64,000 nucleotides of DNA from the human T2T-CHM13v2.0 reference genome, Homo sapiens (GCF_009914755.1 NC_060943.1); one strand, 5' to 3'; shown: positions 39,301 through 45,300, counted from the first letter of the stretch. Numbers and translations are program-made. Notes: generated from the sequence alone by a model not told the origin.

Positions 39301-42300
39301 CACTCCATGCACTCCAGCCTGGATGACAGAGTGAGAGAGATTCTGTCTCAAAGAAAAAACAAAAACAAAAACAAAAAGGACTATGGCTGCAGCAGACTAT
39401 ACCCAGGTAGCCACGCGAGGCTCTGTTCAATAAAATAAAAATTCAGTTTCTCGGTCGCAGCAGCTGCACTTCAACGTGCTCACTTATCACCTGTAGCTAA
39501 AGGCTGCAGGGACAGTGCAGACAAAGGACATTGTCATCCTCGAGGAATGTTCCCTGTGCAGGCACTGGGGAGCTCCTTGGCCCATTCTGTAGCTTTCTGA
39601 GGAATGCAGAAGAAGCTGCGCTTCTAGGAAGCCTCCGCTGTGTCCCTGGCCCCCTAACAGGATGCAATCGGGCAAGCTGGTGGATGGCTGAAGGTTCTGA
39701 AGGGCCAGCCTCGTGCTGGATGCTGCCAGGATTCCAGAAGCGACTGGACCCGTTGTGAACACTAGTTATTATTGCTTATTATTACTCTTTTTAGAGACAG
39801 GGTCTTGCTCCATCACCCAGGCTGGAGTGCAGTGGCGCAATCATAGCTAGCTGCAGCCTCAAACTCCTGGGCTCAAGCGATCCTCCCACTTTGGCCTCCC
39901 AAAGCGCTGGGATCATAGGAGTGAGCCACTGCACCCAGCCAGGGAGCACTAATTATTATACCCAGCTCTGTGCAGTCTCTGCATTTGCCCTTACGCTAAG
40001 GAATTGGCCACCAAGATCAGAGATCCACCAGCAGCCCCACCAATGAGAAAACCGAGCCCAGCCTGGCCCCCCTACCTTAAAGGCCTCGCGGCGCTGGTAC
40101 TCCAGCTTGGCCATTTCCTCGGCCACCCAGCCCGGGATATCGGGGATGGCCACGTGGATGAGGTACTTGAGGAGCAGAGCGAAGTGCTGCAGGGGTGGCA
40201 GAGAGGAGGCTGCAGGCTGCAGACGCTGGGGCCGCCCTCTCGCCTCCCAGCTGCCCCCGCCCCTGTCGCCGGCCCCACCTCGAGCACTACCACCGACACG
40301 ATGGCTGCCTCCGGGCTCAGCCAGGGGAAGAGGCGCTGCAGCTGCCCGCACTGGCCGATTAAGTAGCAGTTGACCACAATCGCTAGGACACCCATGGCCT
40401 CCATCACCTTCTGCAGGGCGGCAGGAGGGCTCAGGCGGGGTCCAGCCGGCCTCCCCAGACCCCAGGCTCCTCCCAGCTGCACCTGGGCTCCCTCTGGGCC
40501 TCAGCTCGGATCTCTTGGCTTCCCCCCACCTGCCACTGGCCGATGCTTTCCACGCGCTGGCCGAAGGGCCGCTGCAGCCCGGTGCACAGCTTGAAGGCGT
40601 CGCTGCGGATCTCAATGAGGTTGTTGACCAGGGCGCACAGCGCCGCCAGGGGGAAGGCGGACGAGAAGAGCACAACGTAGCCGAACTGCACGAACATCTC
40701 CTGGTAGTCCTGGAACGTGTCCTGCGAGTGGGCGGGCCTCAGACCTGGAAGCCTCTTCCCTGGGACAATCTTTCTCCCATTGAGCCCGCCTCCCTCAGAT
40801 TATCCCATGTGGACCCAGGGCCTGTCCCCATCCTCAGCCAGCCCAGAGGCTTCCTGTATCTGGCTAGGCCTTCCTCTCCTGCAGCATCCCAACATCAATG
40901 GCCCTGTTATCACCACTCCCACCCCCACGGCCTTCACCCTCGGACGGTGTGTCCCGTCCCCGGCGAGGCCCCGCCCCCTGCGAGGCCCCGCCCCCTCCTC
41001 ACCTCGTACTTCTTCATACAGCTCTCCAGCTCTGCCTGGGTGAGCTGGGGCGAGTGTTCCTCCTCCGGCGGGTCAATCCAAGACGACCGGTTCTGCCGTC
41101 TCTGCCTACGGGTCGAATCGCTGTTGGAGCCGGGTTCCGGGTCCGGGCCCCCGTCGGGCCCCTGGTCTCGGCCCTCGCCCCCGGCCCGGCGGAACAAGAT
41201 GGCCGGGGGCTCCCGTTCAGGGCTGCCGGGAGCCCCCTCCGCCTCGTCGTCCTCCTCGGCCAGGGTGAACACTCCCGGCTCCAGCCCCTTCTCCACCATA
41301 GTGGGGCTCCCTTCCTCCAGGAGGGCCTCCGGGCTTGGGCCGGGCCGACGCCGCCCCGCGCCGCGCTCAGCGAAGCTGACCTTCTTCAGCCGGAGCCCGC
41401 AGTCCAGGAGGCCCCCTTCCTCGCCCTCCTCCTCGTCCTCCTCTTCCTCCTCGTCCTCCTCCTCCTCGTCGTCCTCGTCCTCCTCCTTGCCCCCTGGAGG
41501 CCCGTCCCCCTCCTCCCCGCCTTCCCCCGCCCGCCGCCGCTCCACCAGCGCCGCCTCCTCCTCCTCCTCCGGCGCCCCGCAGCCCCCGCTGAGGCACCTG
41601 CGGCCCCCGCCCCCGCTGCCGCCGCCCCCGCCCTCATCCGCCTGGGGTTCGAGGCGGCGGGGCGCAGGGCGCCGGAGGCTCAGGAGGCCAAGCAGGGCTC
41701 GGGCCAGCTCCCAGACGGCCCGCAGGCCCAGCTCGCCGCGGCCCAGGCGCCGGTACAGGTGCGGCTGCAGGACCTCGCGCACGTTCTGGAGGAACTGGCG
41801 GGTGATCAGCAGCGTGGCCAGCATCTGGGGGCAGGAAGGGGAAGGAGAGAGGCGCGTGGGGGGCAAGCGGGGCGCCGGGATCGGGGGACTCACCCTCCCT
41901 GGGCGCCCCGCCGGAGCACCGTGCCCAGACACACGCCGAATCCGGTTCCTAACTCCGCTGCTTTGGACGCGCCTCGACGCGAGGCCCCCAGCGCTCAGCC
42001 ACAAAATACAGCCTGGCACGCGCAGCGCTCCTCGCCCACCTCACGGGCAGGCCCAGCGCGTCTCCACCCCACCGCGGGCTCTGTCGGTGCACTGGGCCGC
42101 GTGCGCCCCCAGCCGCCTGCACCTGCTTGCTGGCCGCCCCCGACCCCAGATTCCCTCCGCGCATGCGCCCTCAGCTCGGCGCGCCAGGCCCCCAGCACAG
42201 CCACGCTGCCCACCCCGGCGAGGACCCACGGGCTCGCCACCTGCCCGTACTTTGGCCCGGGCCGCGAGCAGGAGGCCCCGGAGGGAGAGGAGGAGCAGGC

Positions 42301-45300
42301 GGAACCGCAGGGCCGCGAGCGGGACCAGCACCGCCTGCAGCTGCCGCTCGAGGCTCTGGGACAGGGACAGGACGAGCAGGAGCTGTGAAGGGACCGACGG
42401 ACAGATGGACGGACAGATGGGGGGACGACAGGCAGAGAGAGGACGCACAGACGACGGACAACGGACGGACAGACAGGAGAGAAGGATGGAGGAGGGGAGG
42501 GAGGGGCTGGAGAGCCCTTGGACCCCTTGTGCCGGGTCTGGCCCCTCGCTGGCCGCCATGGGGGCAGGGGGGACTGCCGCTGGGGCGGGGGTCTCACCTC
42601 TTTCAAGCGCTCCATGTCCTTGAGGTAGAAACCGATGTAGAAGAGGCTCAGGTACGAGTTGACAAACTGGAACTGCAGGAAGGAGGCAGGCGGTGGTCAT
42701 CCTGCACCCCCACCCGACTCCTTGGAGCCTTCCTTGTGCCCCATACAGACGGCACAGCTTCCCCGTTGTCCTCCTGCCTGTCCGATGGTGGTGACTCACC
42801 AGGACAACTTTGATGATGAGGTGCTTCTCATAGGCGCTCTCCAGCCGGTAATTTTCTAGGGGCCAAGGGGGGGAGTGAGGGGGCAGCCGCGGTCCCCCCA
42901 AGGGTGGCAGGGATCCCAAGGGGCAGTGGAGACCTTCCTCCCAGAGACCCCCTGGCAGGTCGTACCCATGTCATTGAGCCAGATGGCTAGCTTCTTGTAG
43001 CCCTCGGCACTCACACTGACAAGCAGGGCCAGCATGACCTTAGGCAGGAATCGGGCGAGACGGGGCAACCCCTTCACGCTCAGCACCAGCTCCTGCGGGA
43101 GAAGGGGGTTCAGGGCTCATCCCAGCTGCAGGGCTCAGCCCAAGGTGGAGCTAGGTACCAAGGACAGGGCGGGTGAGGGTATGGGGGGTCACCTGCAGCT
43201 GGAAGCAGCCAAGCATGAGCAAGAAGACACAGACGAGGCACGCCAGGCACAGGGGGAGGCTCACAAGCAGCTGGAAGAGCAGCCGCTTCCAGGGCGGGTA
43301 GTAGAACTCCTCGGCCCGCGTGATGGGGCTGATACGTCGCACGCCCTGATGGTGGGCAAAGACCGGGCCCAGCATGAGCTCAGAGGGGCCACCTCTGCCT
43401 TCTGCACCCCTCCCTATCCTCAGAACTCAATTTCCCTCCATCATGCGGAGGTGACCCTCTCAGGTCACCCACCTAGGGCACTGTTCCCAGTCCCTCAAAT
43501 CCAACTTCCACCTCTCCCCCTGGGGAGCACACAGAGCCCGCCTCGGTTTGGCATACCCTCTTTGATGAAACAATCCTGTTTCACACCTCTCTGCCTTTGC
43601 TCCTGCAGTGCCCCCCACCATTTACCTTTGTCCTGTCTCCATGACCCTGGACTCAGCCCCCAACTGACCCTGAACTGGGGGCGTGGCTCCTCCACGGCTT
43701 CCCCAGGTGAGTCCAGCGTCCCCCACTTATATGCCAGCTCAGCCCCTCTCCGCTTCCATTCCTCTAGGAACAGCGTCGACCAGATCACGTTGAAGAGGGC
43801 AAAGACCACGCAGGAAACATCCCGGCTTGTCTGTGAGTGGCAGAGAAGAGTTGAGTCATTGTTTGTGCCAGTCCAGAAAGGAGGGCGCCTCTGGATCCCC
43901 CAGACCTTGCAGGGTCCCTGCCCAGTACCTGATCAGCCTCTGTGAATGTGTACAGGACAGACCCGAAGACAGCTGGGTATACCATAGCCGACGTGTAGAA
44001 GCCCAGCCAGGCGAAGTACATGGCAATTTTCACACCAAAGTAATCACAGATGTCATCTGCCAGGGGACAAGTGGGTCTCAGTCACCCCCTGCCTGTCTGC
44101 TGGGACTCCCTCCCACCCCCCAGCCCAGGCAGCACCTAGAGGCTGGTTTTCACACACGGCCTGCACCCATGACTTCATGAGGCGGTTCAGAATACGCTGC
44201 TCGTGGACAGGGAACACCTGCTGGATGATCCCACGTGCTGCCAGCTCCGGGACTGTGGAGGGAGGAGCACAGGTGATCCCCGCCCCTCCACCTGTGCCTA
44301 GCCTGGCTAGCCCCTCTTTGTCTGAAACCCAAGTCACAGCTTTTTGCCTGCTCTTAAACCTCTAGAGCTCTTTCCAGGGGAGAAGTTCTAGACGGATAGA
44401 AGATCTGATTCTCCTTCAGAAATTGTAGGTGCAGGGGCAGGCGGGGAGAATGTAAAGGAACTGGGAGAGTGGGGTTCTGGTGAGGAACCATGTTTTTTTT
44501 TTTTTTTGAGACAGTCTCACTCTGTCGCCCAGGCTGGAGTGCAGTGGCGTGATCTCCGCTCACCGCAACCTTCAAGCGATTATCGTGCCTCAGCCTCCGG
44601 AGTAGCTGGGATTATAGGCGCCCACCACCACGCCCAGCTAATTTTTGTATTTTAGTAGAGACGGGGTTTCGCCATGTTGGCCAGGCTGGTCTCAAACTCC
44701 TGACCTCAAGTGATCCACCTGCCTCGGCCTCTCAAAGTGCTGAGATTACAGGTGTGAGCCACCGCGCCCGGCTTTTTTTTTTTTTTTTTAGACGGGGTCT
44801 AGCTGTGTCACCAGGCTGGAGTGCAGTAGTGCGATCTCAGCTCACTGCAACCTCTGCCTCCCGGGTTCAAGCGATTCTCCTGCCTCAGCCTCCCGAGTAG
44901 CTGGGACTACAGGCGCGCGCCAACCACACTTGGCTAATTTTTGTATTTTTAGTAGAGATGGGGGTTTCACCATGTTGGCCAGGATGGTCTCGATCTCCTG
45001 ACCTCGTGATACGCCCGCCTCAGCCTCCCAAAGTGCTGAGATTACAGGCGTCAGCCACCGCGCCCGGCCTTATTTTTTACTTTATTTATTTATTTGTTTG
45101 AGACAGGGTCTCGCTCTGTCACCCAGGCTGGACAGAATGCAGTGGCGCTACCATGGCTCACTGCAACCTCGAACTCCTGGGCTCAAGTGATGCTACCGCC
45201 TGGACCTCCCAAAGTACTGGGAGCCACTGCGCCTGTTCCCCTGCTTTAAATAAAGCTCAGTTTGTGGACCCGAACGTCTGAGGAATGGTAAAAACTTGCT

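What the first reader, a model, noticed from the sequence alone, without database searches (positions are those of the whole stretch)
42251..42382. Hidden duplicated TM6 exon in ANO8 intron 12 that lacks the Ca2+-ligand glutamate
Seen: a 132-nt stop-free segment with a pyrimidine-rich ttcacag acceptor and an AAA|gtacgg donor, phase 0 at both ends like exon 13. It encodes [44 protein letters not shown]. Third positions are 43/44 G/C while second positions are 27/44 A/T, a strong coding periodicity. It aligns without gaps to the first 44 residues of exon 13 ([44 protein letters not shown]) with 12 identities, including VLxP, LxLR and ARA. Established: this part of exon 13 is the TMEM16 gating helix TM6, where the N..E...P motif supplies a Ca2+ ligand (E654 in TMEM16A; E485 here by my count). 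The duplicate has Ala at that site. It is not part of the 1232-aa canonical protein. Inference: an ancient exon duplication provides a splice switch. It is either mutually exclusive with exon 13 (swapping TM6 and deleting the acidic loop, 1002 aa) or included as a cassette (1276 aa, with an extra hydrophobic helix). Either would alter Ca2+ sensing or topology. It may already exist as a predicted isoform; I cannot check that.
Basis: partly seen in the sequence, partly recalled or inferred. Interest (0 to 1): 0.9.

Follow-up and report, generated by a model that had tools for sequence, protein, structure and literature searches.

The report
Conserved alternative TM6-like exon in ANO8
The 132-base stretch in ANO8 intron 12 is a real alternative exon, conserved from marsupials to humans, that encodes a degenerate copy of the protein's calcium-sensing gating helix; other mammals already model it as a predicted isoform, but no paper found describes it.

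Summary
Being stop-free proves nothing, because the frame stays open for 309 codons. The codon periodicity is real, and it is the strongest of about 104,000 non-coding 132-nt windows in the 64 kb.

The segment is a genuine conserved exon. Of 160 ANO8-related database proteins, 55 carry the same 44-residue block without any indel. Twenty-five of them, including a marsupial, join it as exon 12 | block | exon 13. Conservation peaks on the block: 0.89 identity and no gaps, against 0.62/0.53 and then 0.30/0.11 in the flanks.

Homology to TM6 is not visible pairwise. It shows against a TM6 profile built from 112-113 diverse ANO8/ANO10-like proteins.

All models show a cassette, with both helices present. 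None shows mutually exclusive use. Ala replaces the Ca2+-ligand Glu in 53 of 55 copies.

My inferred mechanism: the more hydrophobic copy takes the TM6 slot, and the true TM6 moves into the cytosolic loop.

No transcript evidence for inclusion was reachable. All 17 spliced mouse-like contigs skip the exon. The exon is known as gene models in other species, absent from the human RefSeq table, and not found in print.

The parts
42251..42382 (-). Alternative cassette exon of 44 codons, phase 0 at both ends. It encodes a TM6-like helix (TM6') with Gln14, Ala17 and Pro21.
   Evidence: Translation. Periodicity unique in the window. The same 44-aa block is in 55 of 160 ANO8-related proteins without indels. 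In-register match to the TM6 family profile.
42383..42402 (-). 3' splice site of the cassette (gtccgtcggtcccttcacag|), with AG at 42384-42383.
   Evidence: The window-trained PWM score of 8.79 exceeds 12 of 34 annotated acceptors. The residue before the block is Gln (CAR) in 26 of 28 read-through or odd proteins, which fits a conserved CAG.
42245..42250 (-). 5' splice site of the cassette (AAA|gtacgg), with GT at 42250-42249.
   Evidence: The PWM score of 5.68 exceeds 11 of 34 annotated donors. The residue after the block is Val (GTN) in 25 of 28 proteins that read on into the intron.
42392..42474 (-). Pyrimidine-rich tandem repeat in the intron just upstream of the cassette acceptor: period about 11-12, 7.2 copies. 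On the ANO8 strand it reads TGTCCGTCCGTC-like.
   Evidence: The adjacent 30 upstream codons keep 0.62 identity to human in 20 read-through contigs.
42598..42672 (-). ANO8 exon 12 (TM5, ends ...KDMERLKE). It is the upstream splice partner of the cassette.
   Evidence: Hub table; translation; junction LKE|LLL in 27 proteins.
41693..41824 (-). First 44 codons of ANO8 exon 13: the authentic TM6, with Asn482, Glu485 and Pro489. It is the presumed parent of the duplicate and the downstream splice partner.
   Evidence: The TM6 HMM scores 44.4 bits here. Junction ARAK|MLAT is in 27 proteins.
41003..41692 (-). Rest of exon 13: the cytosolic extension of TM6 and the long acidic loop. It has no counterpart in the cassette.
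   Evidence: AF2 pLDDT is below 50 over most of it.

Best explanation
Window 42251-42382 (- strand) is a bona fide alternative cassette exon of ANO8, at least as old as the marsupial-placental ancestor. It most likely arose by tandem duplication of the 5' part of exon 13, which encodes the gating helix TM6.

When included, it inserts 44 residues between TM5 and TM6. The insert is a hydrophobic helix in the same register as TM6. It keeps the hinge proline but carries Gln and Ala where TM6 has the Asn and the Ca2+-ligand Glu. An Arg-rich amphipathic tail follows.

Shown here: the exon is under coding-type constraint, it is TM6-like in register, and gene models in many mammals include it together with exon 13.

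Inferred mechanism, about 40% on its own:
- The copy comes first after TM5.
- It is more hydrophobic than TM6.
- It carries its positive charges at its C-terminal end.
- It therefore inserts as the sixth membrane helix (lumen/outside to cytosol), and the authentic TM6 joins the long cytosolic TM6-TM7 loop.
- Topology is preserved. The TM6-TM7-TM8 Ca2+ site loses its TM6 carboxylate, giving an ANO8 variant with altered or lost Ca2+ gating. Such a variant could also pair with canonical subunits in the dimer.

It appears to be a minor isoform.
For: (1) Coding signature in the human DNA. GC by codon position is 0.86/0.39/0.98, against a flat 0.66-0.77 in the flanking intron and 0.69/0.49/0.83 in the ANO8 CDS. 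It is the top periodicity among 104,308 non-coding windows.

(2) Conservation.
- 55 of 160 proteins from the three word-index searches carry the 44-aa block, at 27-43/44 identity to human and with no indel.
- Mouse is 41/44 and marsupial 30/44 identical to human.
- In 20 read-through contigs, identity to human is 0.89 with gap fraction 0.00 on the block. It is 0.62 and 0.53 in the adjacent 30 codons, and 0.30 and 0.11 further out. Gaps appear in both flanks, and some downstream flanks change frame.

(3) Splicing models.
- 25 proteins read exon 12 | block | exon 13.
- 2 use only its donor, and 2 only its acceptor.
- The splice dinucleotides are compatible in nearly all read-through copies.
- The human sites score within the range of the window's annotated sites.

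(4) TM6 homology.
- Against an HMM of the 44 TM6 columns from 113 diverse ANO8/ANO10-like representatives, the human block scores 10.7 bits, aligned 14-38 to 14-38. 0 of 5000 shuffles reach this.
- 0 of 9367 natural 44-aa six-frame windows of the 64 kb reach it. Their maximum is 7.3, and 58 scored Leu-rich windows reach at most -0.4.
- The ungapped register-0 log-odds are +14.8 (human), +15.7 (rat) and +12.6 (marsupial). Shuffles give -51 +/- 13.5.
- After removing the ambiguous row P0165, the scores are +8.9, +9.4 and +11.0. Shuffles that reach them number 0, 2 and 0 of 50,000. For columns 1-31 the counts are 2, 8 and 5 of 50,000.
- All 43 other cyclic registers are negative: -33 to -86 over all 44 columns, and -28 to -74 over columns 1-31.
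- DNA identity to exon 13 is 65/132, codon-shuffle P = 0.008.
- phmmer aligned the rat block co-linearly to TM6 of human ANO10 (5oc9).

(5) Mechanism.
- The block is more hydrophobic than TM6: mean KD 1.20 against 0.52 over the first 20 residues, with a best 19-aa window of 1.69. Five of its 7 charged residues are basic and lie in residues 22-44.
- AF2 of the rat cassette isoform keeps the TMEM16 core above pLDDT 90. A helix at 463-490 runs from the TM5 turn through the block to its Pro, at pLDDT 78 then 58. The authentic TM6 (513-540) falls to 43-54.
- In the canonical control with the same alignment, TM6 is helix 463-496 at pLDDT 76-88.
- The other Ca2+-site residues are nearly invariant in the alignment.
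- The two-Ca2+ site lies between TM6, TM7 and TM8 (PMC6718402, passages).
Against: - No spliced transcript carrying the exon was seen. All 25 junction-bearing proteins are gene models from NCBI, UniProt or EukProt, and these may borrow from one another across species.
- All 17 unnamed spliced mouse-like ANO8 proteins on 2.9-7.7 kb contigs join exon 12 directly to exon 13.
- The human RefSeq table given by the hub lists no such exon.
- Pairwise tests see no homology. The best BLASTP HSP is elsewhere, at E 0.39. hhalign with mammal-only profiles scores 9.9 (P 0.13), and 29 of 200 column shuffles do as well. Raw identity is matched by other ANO8 windows.
- Scored inside its 309-aa open frame, the TM6 HMM gives only 5.1 bits (E 1.7). 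That ties with a random ORF, although it ranks second after the true TM6.
- Columns 32-39 of the HMM rest on 4-9 sequences.
- The lengths differ: 132 against 822 nt.
- The membrane-swap mechanism is inference. AF2 gave no coordinates, and confidence over residues 481-540 is low.
Confidence: 0.7

Rival explanations
1. The exon is real and TM6-derived, but when included it forms an extra lumenal/extracellular helical hairpin in the TM5-TM6 loop (helix 1-20, turn at Pro21, helix 22-44), or two extra membrane spans. The authentic TM6 stays in place. The insert would then modulate the groove entrance or a partner contact rather than the Ca2+ site.
For: AF2 predicts two helices within the block (to residue 490, and 497-508) separated by a break, followed by a helical TM6. 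44 residues with a central Pro could make a hairpin. An even number of added spans would also preserve topology.
Against: Five basic residues would sit on the non-cytosolic side, against the positive-inside rule (established knowledge; residue counts). The block is TM6-like in exact register, including the hinge Pro. AF2 confidence in the authentic TM6 collapses when the block is present.
Confidence: 0.15
2. The block is an evolutionary relic or a gene-prediction artefact in human. It is conserved for another reason, such as an intronic splicing or chromatin element in a GC-rich intron, and is rarely or never spliced into productive human mRNA. The predicted isoforms in other species reflect open frames and usable splice sites rather than function.
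For: The human RefSeq table lacks it (hub). 17 of 17 spliced mouse-like contigs skip it. The frame is open across the whole intron, so gene finders can thread it. Several models read through one flank (mouse X3, Chionomys X2, macaque, goat). The donor and acceptor are only mid-range. Five literature searches found nothing on it.
Against: A non-coding element does not explain several findings. Codon periodicity is confined to exactly these 132 nt. No indel occurs in 55 copies while both flanks carry gaps and some change frame. Identity from human to marsupial is 30/44 at the protein level. The match to the TM6 profile is register-specific.
Confidence: 0.12
3. The periodic signal comes from the opposite (+) strand, from an unannotated antisense Glu/Gln-rich coding region, or from a decayed (CTS)n/(SAG)n trinucleotide repeat, and not from an ANO8 exon.
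For: The codon-aligned + strand frame is open (506 aa) and reads ...[15 protein letters not shown].... 18 of 44 codons are CTC or CTG. Inverted low-complexity matches of 70-82% link it to the GAG-rich acidic-loop coding part of exon 13.
Against: TRF finds no period-3 array here. The GC3 > GC1 > GC2 pattern fits the ANO8 strand. 25 gene models splice it in the ANO8 sense. The sequence is single-copy in the genome. The cassette-exon 13 RNA duplex energy is no better than for codon-shuffled controls: 194 of 300 shuffles are as good or better.
Confidence: 0.03

Closest known systems
Predicted ANO8 isoforms with a 44-aa insert in other mammals, as named by the sources. Examples: rat isoform X1/X5, guinea pig X2, naked mole-rat X2, cat/jaguar X1, horse X2, zebu X3, squirrel X3, Dromiciops gliroides X3.
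   Same: It is the same exon, at the same junctions (…KDMERLKE | 44 aa | MLATLL…), with 27-43/44 identity to the human block.
   Different: The human RefSeq table given by the hub has no such transcript. These are computed models with no described function. Their TM6 paralogy and missing Ca2+ ligand are not discussed in any paper found.
Tandemly duplicated alternative exons that encode membrane helices of ion channels, for example CACNA1C exons 8/8a and the sodium-channel 5N/5A exons (recalled, not checked here).
   Same: A neighbouring copy of an exon that encodes a gating or pore helix, in the same phase, offering a variant helix through splicing.
   Different: Those pairs are equal in length and mutually exclusive. 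Here the copy covers only the first 132 of 822 nt of the parent exon, and it is modelled as a cassette included together with the parent (25 of 25 junction-bearing models).
ANO1/TMEM16A alternative segments a-d that tune Ca2+ and voltage sensitivity (recalled; ANO1 splicing reviews appeared only as search listings).
   Same: Alternative splicing within the TMEM16 family that is expected to change Ca2+ gating.
   Different: The ANO1 segments lie in the N-terminus and in the first intracellular loop (recalled). They are not copies of a transmembrane helix. This exon duplicates TM6 itself and removes a Ca2+ ligand.
TM6 of TMEM16K/ANO10 and other TMEM16 structures (5oc9, 6r65 and others).
   Same: phmmer aligns the rat block co-linearly with ANO10 TM6 up to its Pro. 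The AF2 model of the cassette isoform matches TMEM16K at Z 36.8, rmsd 2.8 A, 590 residues aligned.
   Different: The block has Gln and Ala where the family has Asn and the nearly invariant Glu. It is more hydrophobic than TM6.

Membership tests
Alternative cassette exon of a protein-coding gene | Stop-free, length a multiple of three, and phase-compatible with both neighbouring exons | tested here: met
   132 nt. Exons 12 and 13 are both phase 0 at both ends.
Alternative cassette exon of a protein-coding gene | Usable AG acceptor and GT donor | tested here: met
   cacag|CTC and AAA|gtacgg. PWM scores exceed 12 of 34 annotated acceptors and 11 of 34 annotated donors in the window. This PWM is crude, being trained on only 34 sites.
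Alternative cassette exon of a protein-coding gene | Coding-type conservation that exceeds the flanking intron | tested here: met
   Identity is 0.89 with no gaps on the block, against 0.62/0.53 and 0.30/0.11 in the flanks. There are 55 copies without an indel. The marsupial copy is 30/44. Codon-level dN/dS was not testable because no DNA of other species was available.
Alternative cassette exon of a protein-coding gene | Spliced transcripts that contain both junctions | not testable with these tools
   Only gene models show both junctions (25). 17 of 17 unnamed spliced mouse-like contigs lack the exon. No RNA-seq junction data were available.
Tandem exon duplication (paralogous neighbouring exon) | Adjacent to the parent exon, on the same strand and in the same phase | tested here: met
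   It lies 426 nt (142 codons) upstream of exon 13, on the same strand, at phase 0.
Tandem exon duplication (paralogous neighbouring exon) | Significant pairwise similarity to the parent exon | tested here: not met
   BLASTP finds no alignment to the TM6 part; the best HSP is elsewhere at E 0.39. Identity of 12/44 gives P = 0.009 at fixed register but is equalled by other ANO8 windows. hhalign with mammal-only profiles gives P = 0.13.
Tandem exon duplication (paralogous neighbouring exon) | Significant similarity to the parent exon's family profile, in the same register | tested here: met
   Register-0 log-odds are +8.9 to +15.7 bits. Shuffles reach this in 0-2 of 50,000 (0 of 20,000). All 43 other registers are negative. 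0 of 9367 natural windows reach the HMM score.
Tandem exon duplication (paralogous neighbouring exon) | Similar exon length | tested here: not met
   132 nt against 822 nt. Only the first 44 codons of exon 13 have a counterpart.
Mutually exclusive exon pair | Exactly one of the two exons in every mature transcript | tested here: not met
   25 models contain both exons, and canonical forms contain exon 13 alone. None of the 55 block-bearing proteins joins the block to exon 14. The two searches seeded with the block itself could have found exon-13-less forms.
TMEM16 TM6 gating helix with Ca2+ ligands | Helix directly after the TM5 turn, with the conserved hinge Pro at position 21 | tested here: met
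   Pro21 is present in 55 of 55 copies. The family Pro is invariant in 136 sequences. AF2 builds helix 463-490.
TMEM16 TM6 gating helix with Ca2+ ligands | Glu at the position of human ANO8 E485 (TMEM16A E654, recalled) | tested here: not met
   Ala in 53 of 55 copies; Glu in 2, both from the vole Chionomys nivalis. The family Glu is at least 90% conserved.
TMEM16 TM6 gating helix with Ca2+ ligands | Asn three residues before that Glu | tested here: not met
   Gln in 55 of 55 copies. The HMM consensus has Asn at column 14.

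The most novel reading that the evidence does not exclude
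Inclusion of this exon performs a 'helix swap by insertion'. The duplicated, ligand-less TM6' is integrated as the sixth membrane helix, and the authentic TM6 is expelled into the cytosolic loop. One cassette exon would thus convert ANO8 into a form with a crippled TM6-TM7-TM8 Ca2+ site. It could act as a Ca2+-independent variant, or as a dominant-negative partner in the dimer. The mechanism would have been maintained since before the marsupial-placental split. It would show how a cassette, rather than mutually exclusive exons, can exchange a transmembrane helix.
Probability: 0.3. Interest if true: 0.75.

Novelty: new member of a known kind. Interest (0 to 1): 0.55.

Why it matters
ANO8/TMEM16H is among the least understood anoctamins. 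A review passage (PMC8835819) reports it as involved in ER-plasma membrane junctions. A conserved splice form that replaces or doubles the gating helix and removes a Ca2+ ligand would be a natural, testable handle on two questions: whether ANO8 function depends on Ca2+ binding, and how TM6 controls the groove.

It also marks a gap in annotation. The exon is missing from the human RefSeq table supplied, so variants inside it would currently be read as deep-intronic.

More generally, it is an example of a partial exon duplicate used as a cassette, which could exchange a membrane helix without mutually exclusive splicing.

Tried and rejected
- The stop-free frame was dropped as evidence, because all six frames are open here.
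- BLASTP of the block against exon 13 found nothing at TM6.
- hhalign with mammal-only profiles picked the right register, but 29 of 200 column shuffles scored as well.
- The TM6 HMM scored on whole six-frame ORFs ranked the block second, at only 5.1 bits and E 1.7.
- A 30-column TM6 HMM gave 2.7 bits, P = 0.015.
- DNA and protein searches of the human genome showed the block is single-copy, so it is not a repeat family.
- The idea of a decayed trinucleotide repeat was tested with TRF, which found no period-3 array at the site.
- Long-range RNA pairing between the CUC-rich block and the GAG-rich part of exon 13 looked possible from inverted repeats of 70-82%. The duplex energy of -178.2 kcal/mol was matched or beaten by 194 of 300 codon shuffles, so the idea was dropped.
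- pdb_via confirmed the TMEM16 fold of the AF2 model but gave no residue-level placement of the block.
- Non-mammalian copies: the profile search with 14 cassette versions reached a marsupial and nothing beyond. This is weak evidence of absence, because the search needs shared 5-residue words and only deposited gene models are visible.
- Literature: five searches gave no paper on this exon (ANO8 + alternative splicing; anoctamin 8 + isoform; TMEM16H; mutually exclusive exons + anoctamin; Ano8 + exon + inclusion).
  - PMC7394696 lists an 'ANO8-48279-AA' alternative-acceptor event without coordinates (passage).
  - PMC10958972 lists ANO8 as an 'express|splice' TWAS gene (passage).
  - Supplements of these papers were not opened and might hold coordinates.
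- The ANO8 tethering paper (PMC6576175) is not held. It is known here only from the review passage and reference list in PMC8835819.

Full report
**1. The observation**

The sequence facts are all correct.
- It is bounded by ...cccttcacag| and |gtacgg.
- G/C content by codon position is 38/44, 17/44 and 43/44.
- The ungapped alignment to the first 44 residues of exon 13 gives 12 identities.
- Joining the annotated coding parts gives 1232 residues. Exon 13 starts at residue 469 and the Glu is at 485.
- Exons 12 and 13 are both phase 0 at each end.

**2. Which parts beat chance**

Being stop-free does not. This frame is open for 309 codons, and ORFs of 73-749 aa cross the intron in all six frames, as expected at 70-80% G+C.

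The three-base periodicity does.
- Among 104,308 fully non-coding 132-nt windows of the 64 kb, on both strands, only three reach GC3 >= 43 with GC2 <= 17. All three overlap this segment.
- The intron on both sides is flat at 0.66-0.77 at each position. The ANO8 CDS as a whole is 0.69/0.49/0.83.

The 12/44 identity alone is weak.
- A residue shuffle at fixed register gives P = 0.009.
- Three other windows of ANO8 score 12-13/44.
- BLASTP finds no alignment to the TM6 part.

The sequence is single-copy in the human genome. TRF sees no period-3 array in it.

**3. It is a real, conserved exon**

A word-index search with the TM6 part of exon 13 returned ANO8 proteins of many mammals.
- Of the 120 listed, 13 carry exactly 44 extra residues between ...KDMERLKE and MLATLL....
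- A further rodent model does too, and mouse isoform X3 has the block preceded by in-frame retained intron.

Searching with the block itself, and then with a profile of 14 versions, added more species:
- rat (X1, X5), Mastomys, Arvicanthis and Chionomys;
- guinea pig, naked mole-rat, tree shrew and goat;
- a macaque model that uses the acceptor and then reads into the intron;
- the marsupial Dromiciops gliroides, isoform X3, with a 44-residue block 30/44 identical to human.

The overall tally comes from 160 proteins returned by the three searches.
- 55 hold the block, at 27-43/44 identity to human, with no insertion or deletion.
- 25 read exon 12 | block | exon 13.
- 23 are unnamed short contigs that read intron-block-intron.
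- 2 read intron-block-exon 13, and 2 read exon 12-block-intron.
- 3 are odd models. A further pangolin model with a shortened 37-residue version falls outside the 55.
- Where the protein reads on into intron, the residue before the block is Gln in 26 of 28 and the residue after is Val in 25 of 28. This fits conserved CAG| and |GT.

In 20 read-through contigs the conservation peaks on the block.
- Identity to human is 0.89 on the block, with no gaps.
- It is 0.62 and 0.53 in the adjacent 30 codons.
- It is 0.30 and 0.11 beyond that. Gaps appear in both flanks, and some downstream flanks change frame.

Mouse is 41/44 identical to human. As far as I recall, neutral human-mouse divergence would leave far less identity than this. 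The exon therefore dates at least to the marsupial-placental ancestor and is under coding-type constraint.

Two caveats apply. The 25 junction-bearing entries are computed gene models, which may borrow evidence across species. I also had no DNA from other species, so synonymous and non-synonymous change could not be separated.

**4. How it is used**

Every model that has both junctions includes exon 13 as well. No protein joins the block to exon 14, although the searches seeded with the block could have found such forms. One ab initio model (Fukomys, P0151) joins part of the block to the middle of exon 13. I treat it as a prediction artefact.

The exon looks minor. All 17 unnamed, evidently spliced mouse-like ANO8 proteins (874-1101 aa, on contigs of 2.9-7.7 kb) join exon 12 directly to exon 13. 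The human RefSeq table supplied by the hub lists no exon here.

The human splice sites are mid-range. A PWM trained on the window's 34 annotated introns places the donor above 11 of 34 and the acceptor above 12 of 34.

**5. Is it a copy of TM6?**

Pairwise and shallow-profile tests say no.
- BLASTP finds nothing at TM6.
29 of 200 column shuffles do as well.

A deeper profile says yes. I collected 150 representatives of the ANO8/ANO10-like branch, aligned them to a cassette-less rat ANO8, and built an HMM of the 44 TM6 columns from the 113 rows that span TM6. No training row contains the block.
- The human block scores 10.7 bits, aligned 14-38 to 14-38. 0 of 5000 composition-preserving shuffles reach this; their maximum is 9.6.
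- Cutting all six-frame ORFs of the 64 kb into 9367 natural 44-residue windows, none outside TM6 and the block reaches 10.7. The maximum is 7.3, and 58 scored Leu-rich windows reach at most -0.4.
- Ungapped at register 0, the log-odds are +14.8 (human), +15.7 (rat) and +12.6 (marsupial). Shuffles give -51 +/- 13.5, and 0 of 20,000 reach the observed values.
- Each of the other 43 cyclic registers scores -33 to -86.

One training row needed a check. P0165 is an unnamed ANO8-like protein whose TM6 segment looks intermediate: 13/44 identical to the cassette consensus and 14/44 to the TM6 consensus. Removing it lowers the scores but keeps the result.
- The scores become +8.9, +9.4 and +11.0. Shuffles that reach them number 0, 2 and 0 of 50,000.
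- For columns 1-31 the counts are 2, 8 and 5 of 50,000.
- For columns 1-21 they are 10, 18 and 27 of 50,000.
- Register 0 is still the only positive one.

Two further observations agree. At the DNA level the identity is 65/132, with codon-shuffle P = 0.008. phmmer aligned the rat block co-linearly with TM6 of human ANO10, 5oc9.

Results against this reading:
- Scored inside its 309-residue open frame, the block gets only 5.1 bits (E 1.7). It ranks second after the true TM6 (44.4 bits) but ties with a random ORF.
- HMM columns 32-39 rest on only 4-9 sequences.
- The two exons differ greatly in length, 132 against 822 nt.

I put the duplication origin at about 75%.

**6. What the copy has lost**

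At the position of the nearly invariant family Glu (human E485), the block has Ala in 53 of 55 copies. The other two have Glu and are both from the vole Chionomys nivalis. At the Asn three residues earlier it has Gln in 55 of 55. The hinge Pro is kept in 55 of 55.

The conserved two-Ca2+ site of TMEM16 proteins lies between TM6, TM7 and TM8 (PMC6718402, passages read). The equivalence to TMEM16A E654 is recalled, not tested. The remaining site residues of ANO8, in TM7 and TM8, are nearly invariant in my alignment.

**7. Likely mechanism (inferred)**

The insertion point is the short TM5-TM6 turn on the lumenal/extracellular side. Three features of the block matter.
- It is more hydrophobic than ANO8's own TM6: mean Kyte-Doolittle 1.20 against 0.52 over the first 20 residues, with a best 19-residue window of 1.69.
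- It comes first after TM5.
- Five of its seven charged residues are basic and lie in its C-terminal half.

By the positive-inside rule (established knowledge), the simplest outcome is that the block spans the membrane as the sixth helix. The authentic, weakly hydrophobic TM6 then joins the long cytosolic TM6-TM7 loop. Topology is kept, but the Ca2+ site loses its TM6 carboxylate.

AlphaFold2 results are consistent with this but do not prove it.
- With a 136-sequence alignment, the rat cassette isoform folds as a TMEM16 protein: pTM 0.70, core above pLDDT 90, and TMEM16K matched at Z 36.8, rmsd 2.8 A, 590 residues aligned.
- A helix at 463-490 runs from the TM5 turn through the block to its Pro, at pLDDT 78 then 58.
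- The authentic TM6 (513-540) falls to pLDDT 43-54.
- In the cassette-less control with the same sequences, TM6 is helix 463-496 at pLDDT 76-88.
- No coordinates were returned, so I could not see which helix sits in the groove.

The main rival is an extra hairpin outside the membrane, with TM6 left in place.

**8. Comparison with what is known, and novelty**

The exon already exists as predicted isoforms in many non-human mammals, so it is not hidden from databases. It is absent from the human RefSeq table supplied.

Five full-text searches found no paper that describes it, its TM6 paralogy or its missing Ca2+ ligand. Two papers list ANO8 splicing events without coordinates in the text, and their supplements were not opened.

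In kind, it is a tandem-duplicated alternative exon, which is a known class. It is unusual in two ways: it is a partial copy, and it is used as a cassette alongside its parent rather than in mutually exclusive fashion.

**9. Verdict**

The exon is real and conserved, is probably TM6-derived, and is used as a cassette. Mutually exclusive use is not supported.
- Whether, where and how much human tissue includes the exon remains open.
- The membrane-swap mechanism is my inference.

Noticed in passing
window 42392-42474 (- strand intron, 10 nt upstream of the cassette acceptor): A tandem repeat of period about 11-12 with 7.2 copies (TGTCCGTCCGTC-like on the ANO8 strand) fills the intron just before the cassette. 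Its translation (…ICPSxCPSVPxQ) is kept in the read-through contigs of other mammals. It may be a splicing-control element.
   Followed up: partly
protein P0165 (unnamed representative, 870 aa), residues about 392-435: This ANO8-like protein is 46-59% identical to rat ANO8. Its segment after the TM5 exon is intermediate between TM6 and the cassette: 14/44 and 13/44 identities to the two consensus sequences. It has Thr at the Glu position, and sequence that resembles no ANO8 follows. It could be a diverged TM6, a non-mammalian cassette homologue or a faulty model.
   Followed up: partly
proteins P0091, P0115, P0122 (Arvicanthis X7, mouse X6, rat X6); human equivalent is window 42598-42672: These predicted rodent isoforms skip the 75-nt TM5 exon 12 in frame (…IIKVVL|MLATLL…), which would remove a membrane span.
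   Followed up: no
window 40374-42970, both strands: Very long open frames run in all six frames across exon 13 and intron 12, for example 749 aa and 506 aa on the + strand. They are a by-product of 70-83% G+C and not evidence of genes.
   Followed up: yes
window 41413-41497 against 42257-42323: The CTC/CTG-rich 3' half of the cassette is 70-82% complementary over 28-43 nt to the GAG-rich acidic-loop coding part of exon 13. The predicted RNA duplex is no more stable than for codon-shuffled controls, 194 of 300 as good or better, so this is compositional.
   Followed up: yes
proteins P0096 (mouse X3) and P0157 (Chionomys X2): In these rodent models the intron between exon 12 and the cassette is retained in frame, adding roughly 60 extra residues before the block. 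In human this intron piece is 215 nt long and would shift the frame.
   Followed up: no
protein P0160 (Panthera tigris altaica model) and P0023 (Smutsia gigantea model): These two models carry shortened versions of the block: a 5-residue deletion in the tiger model and a 37-residue form in the pangolin model. They are the only length variants seen, and they may be assembly or model errors.
   Followed up: no
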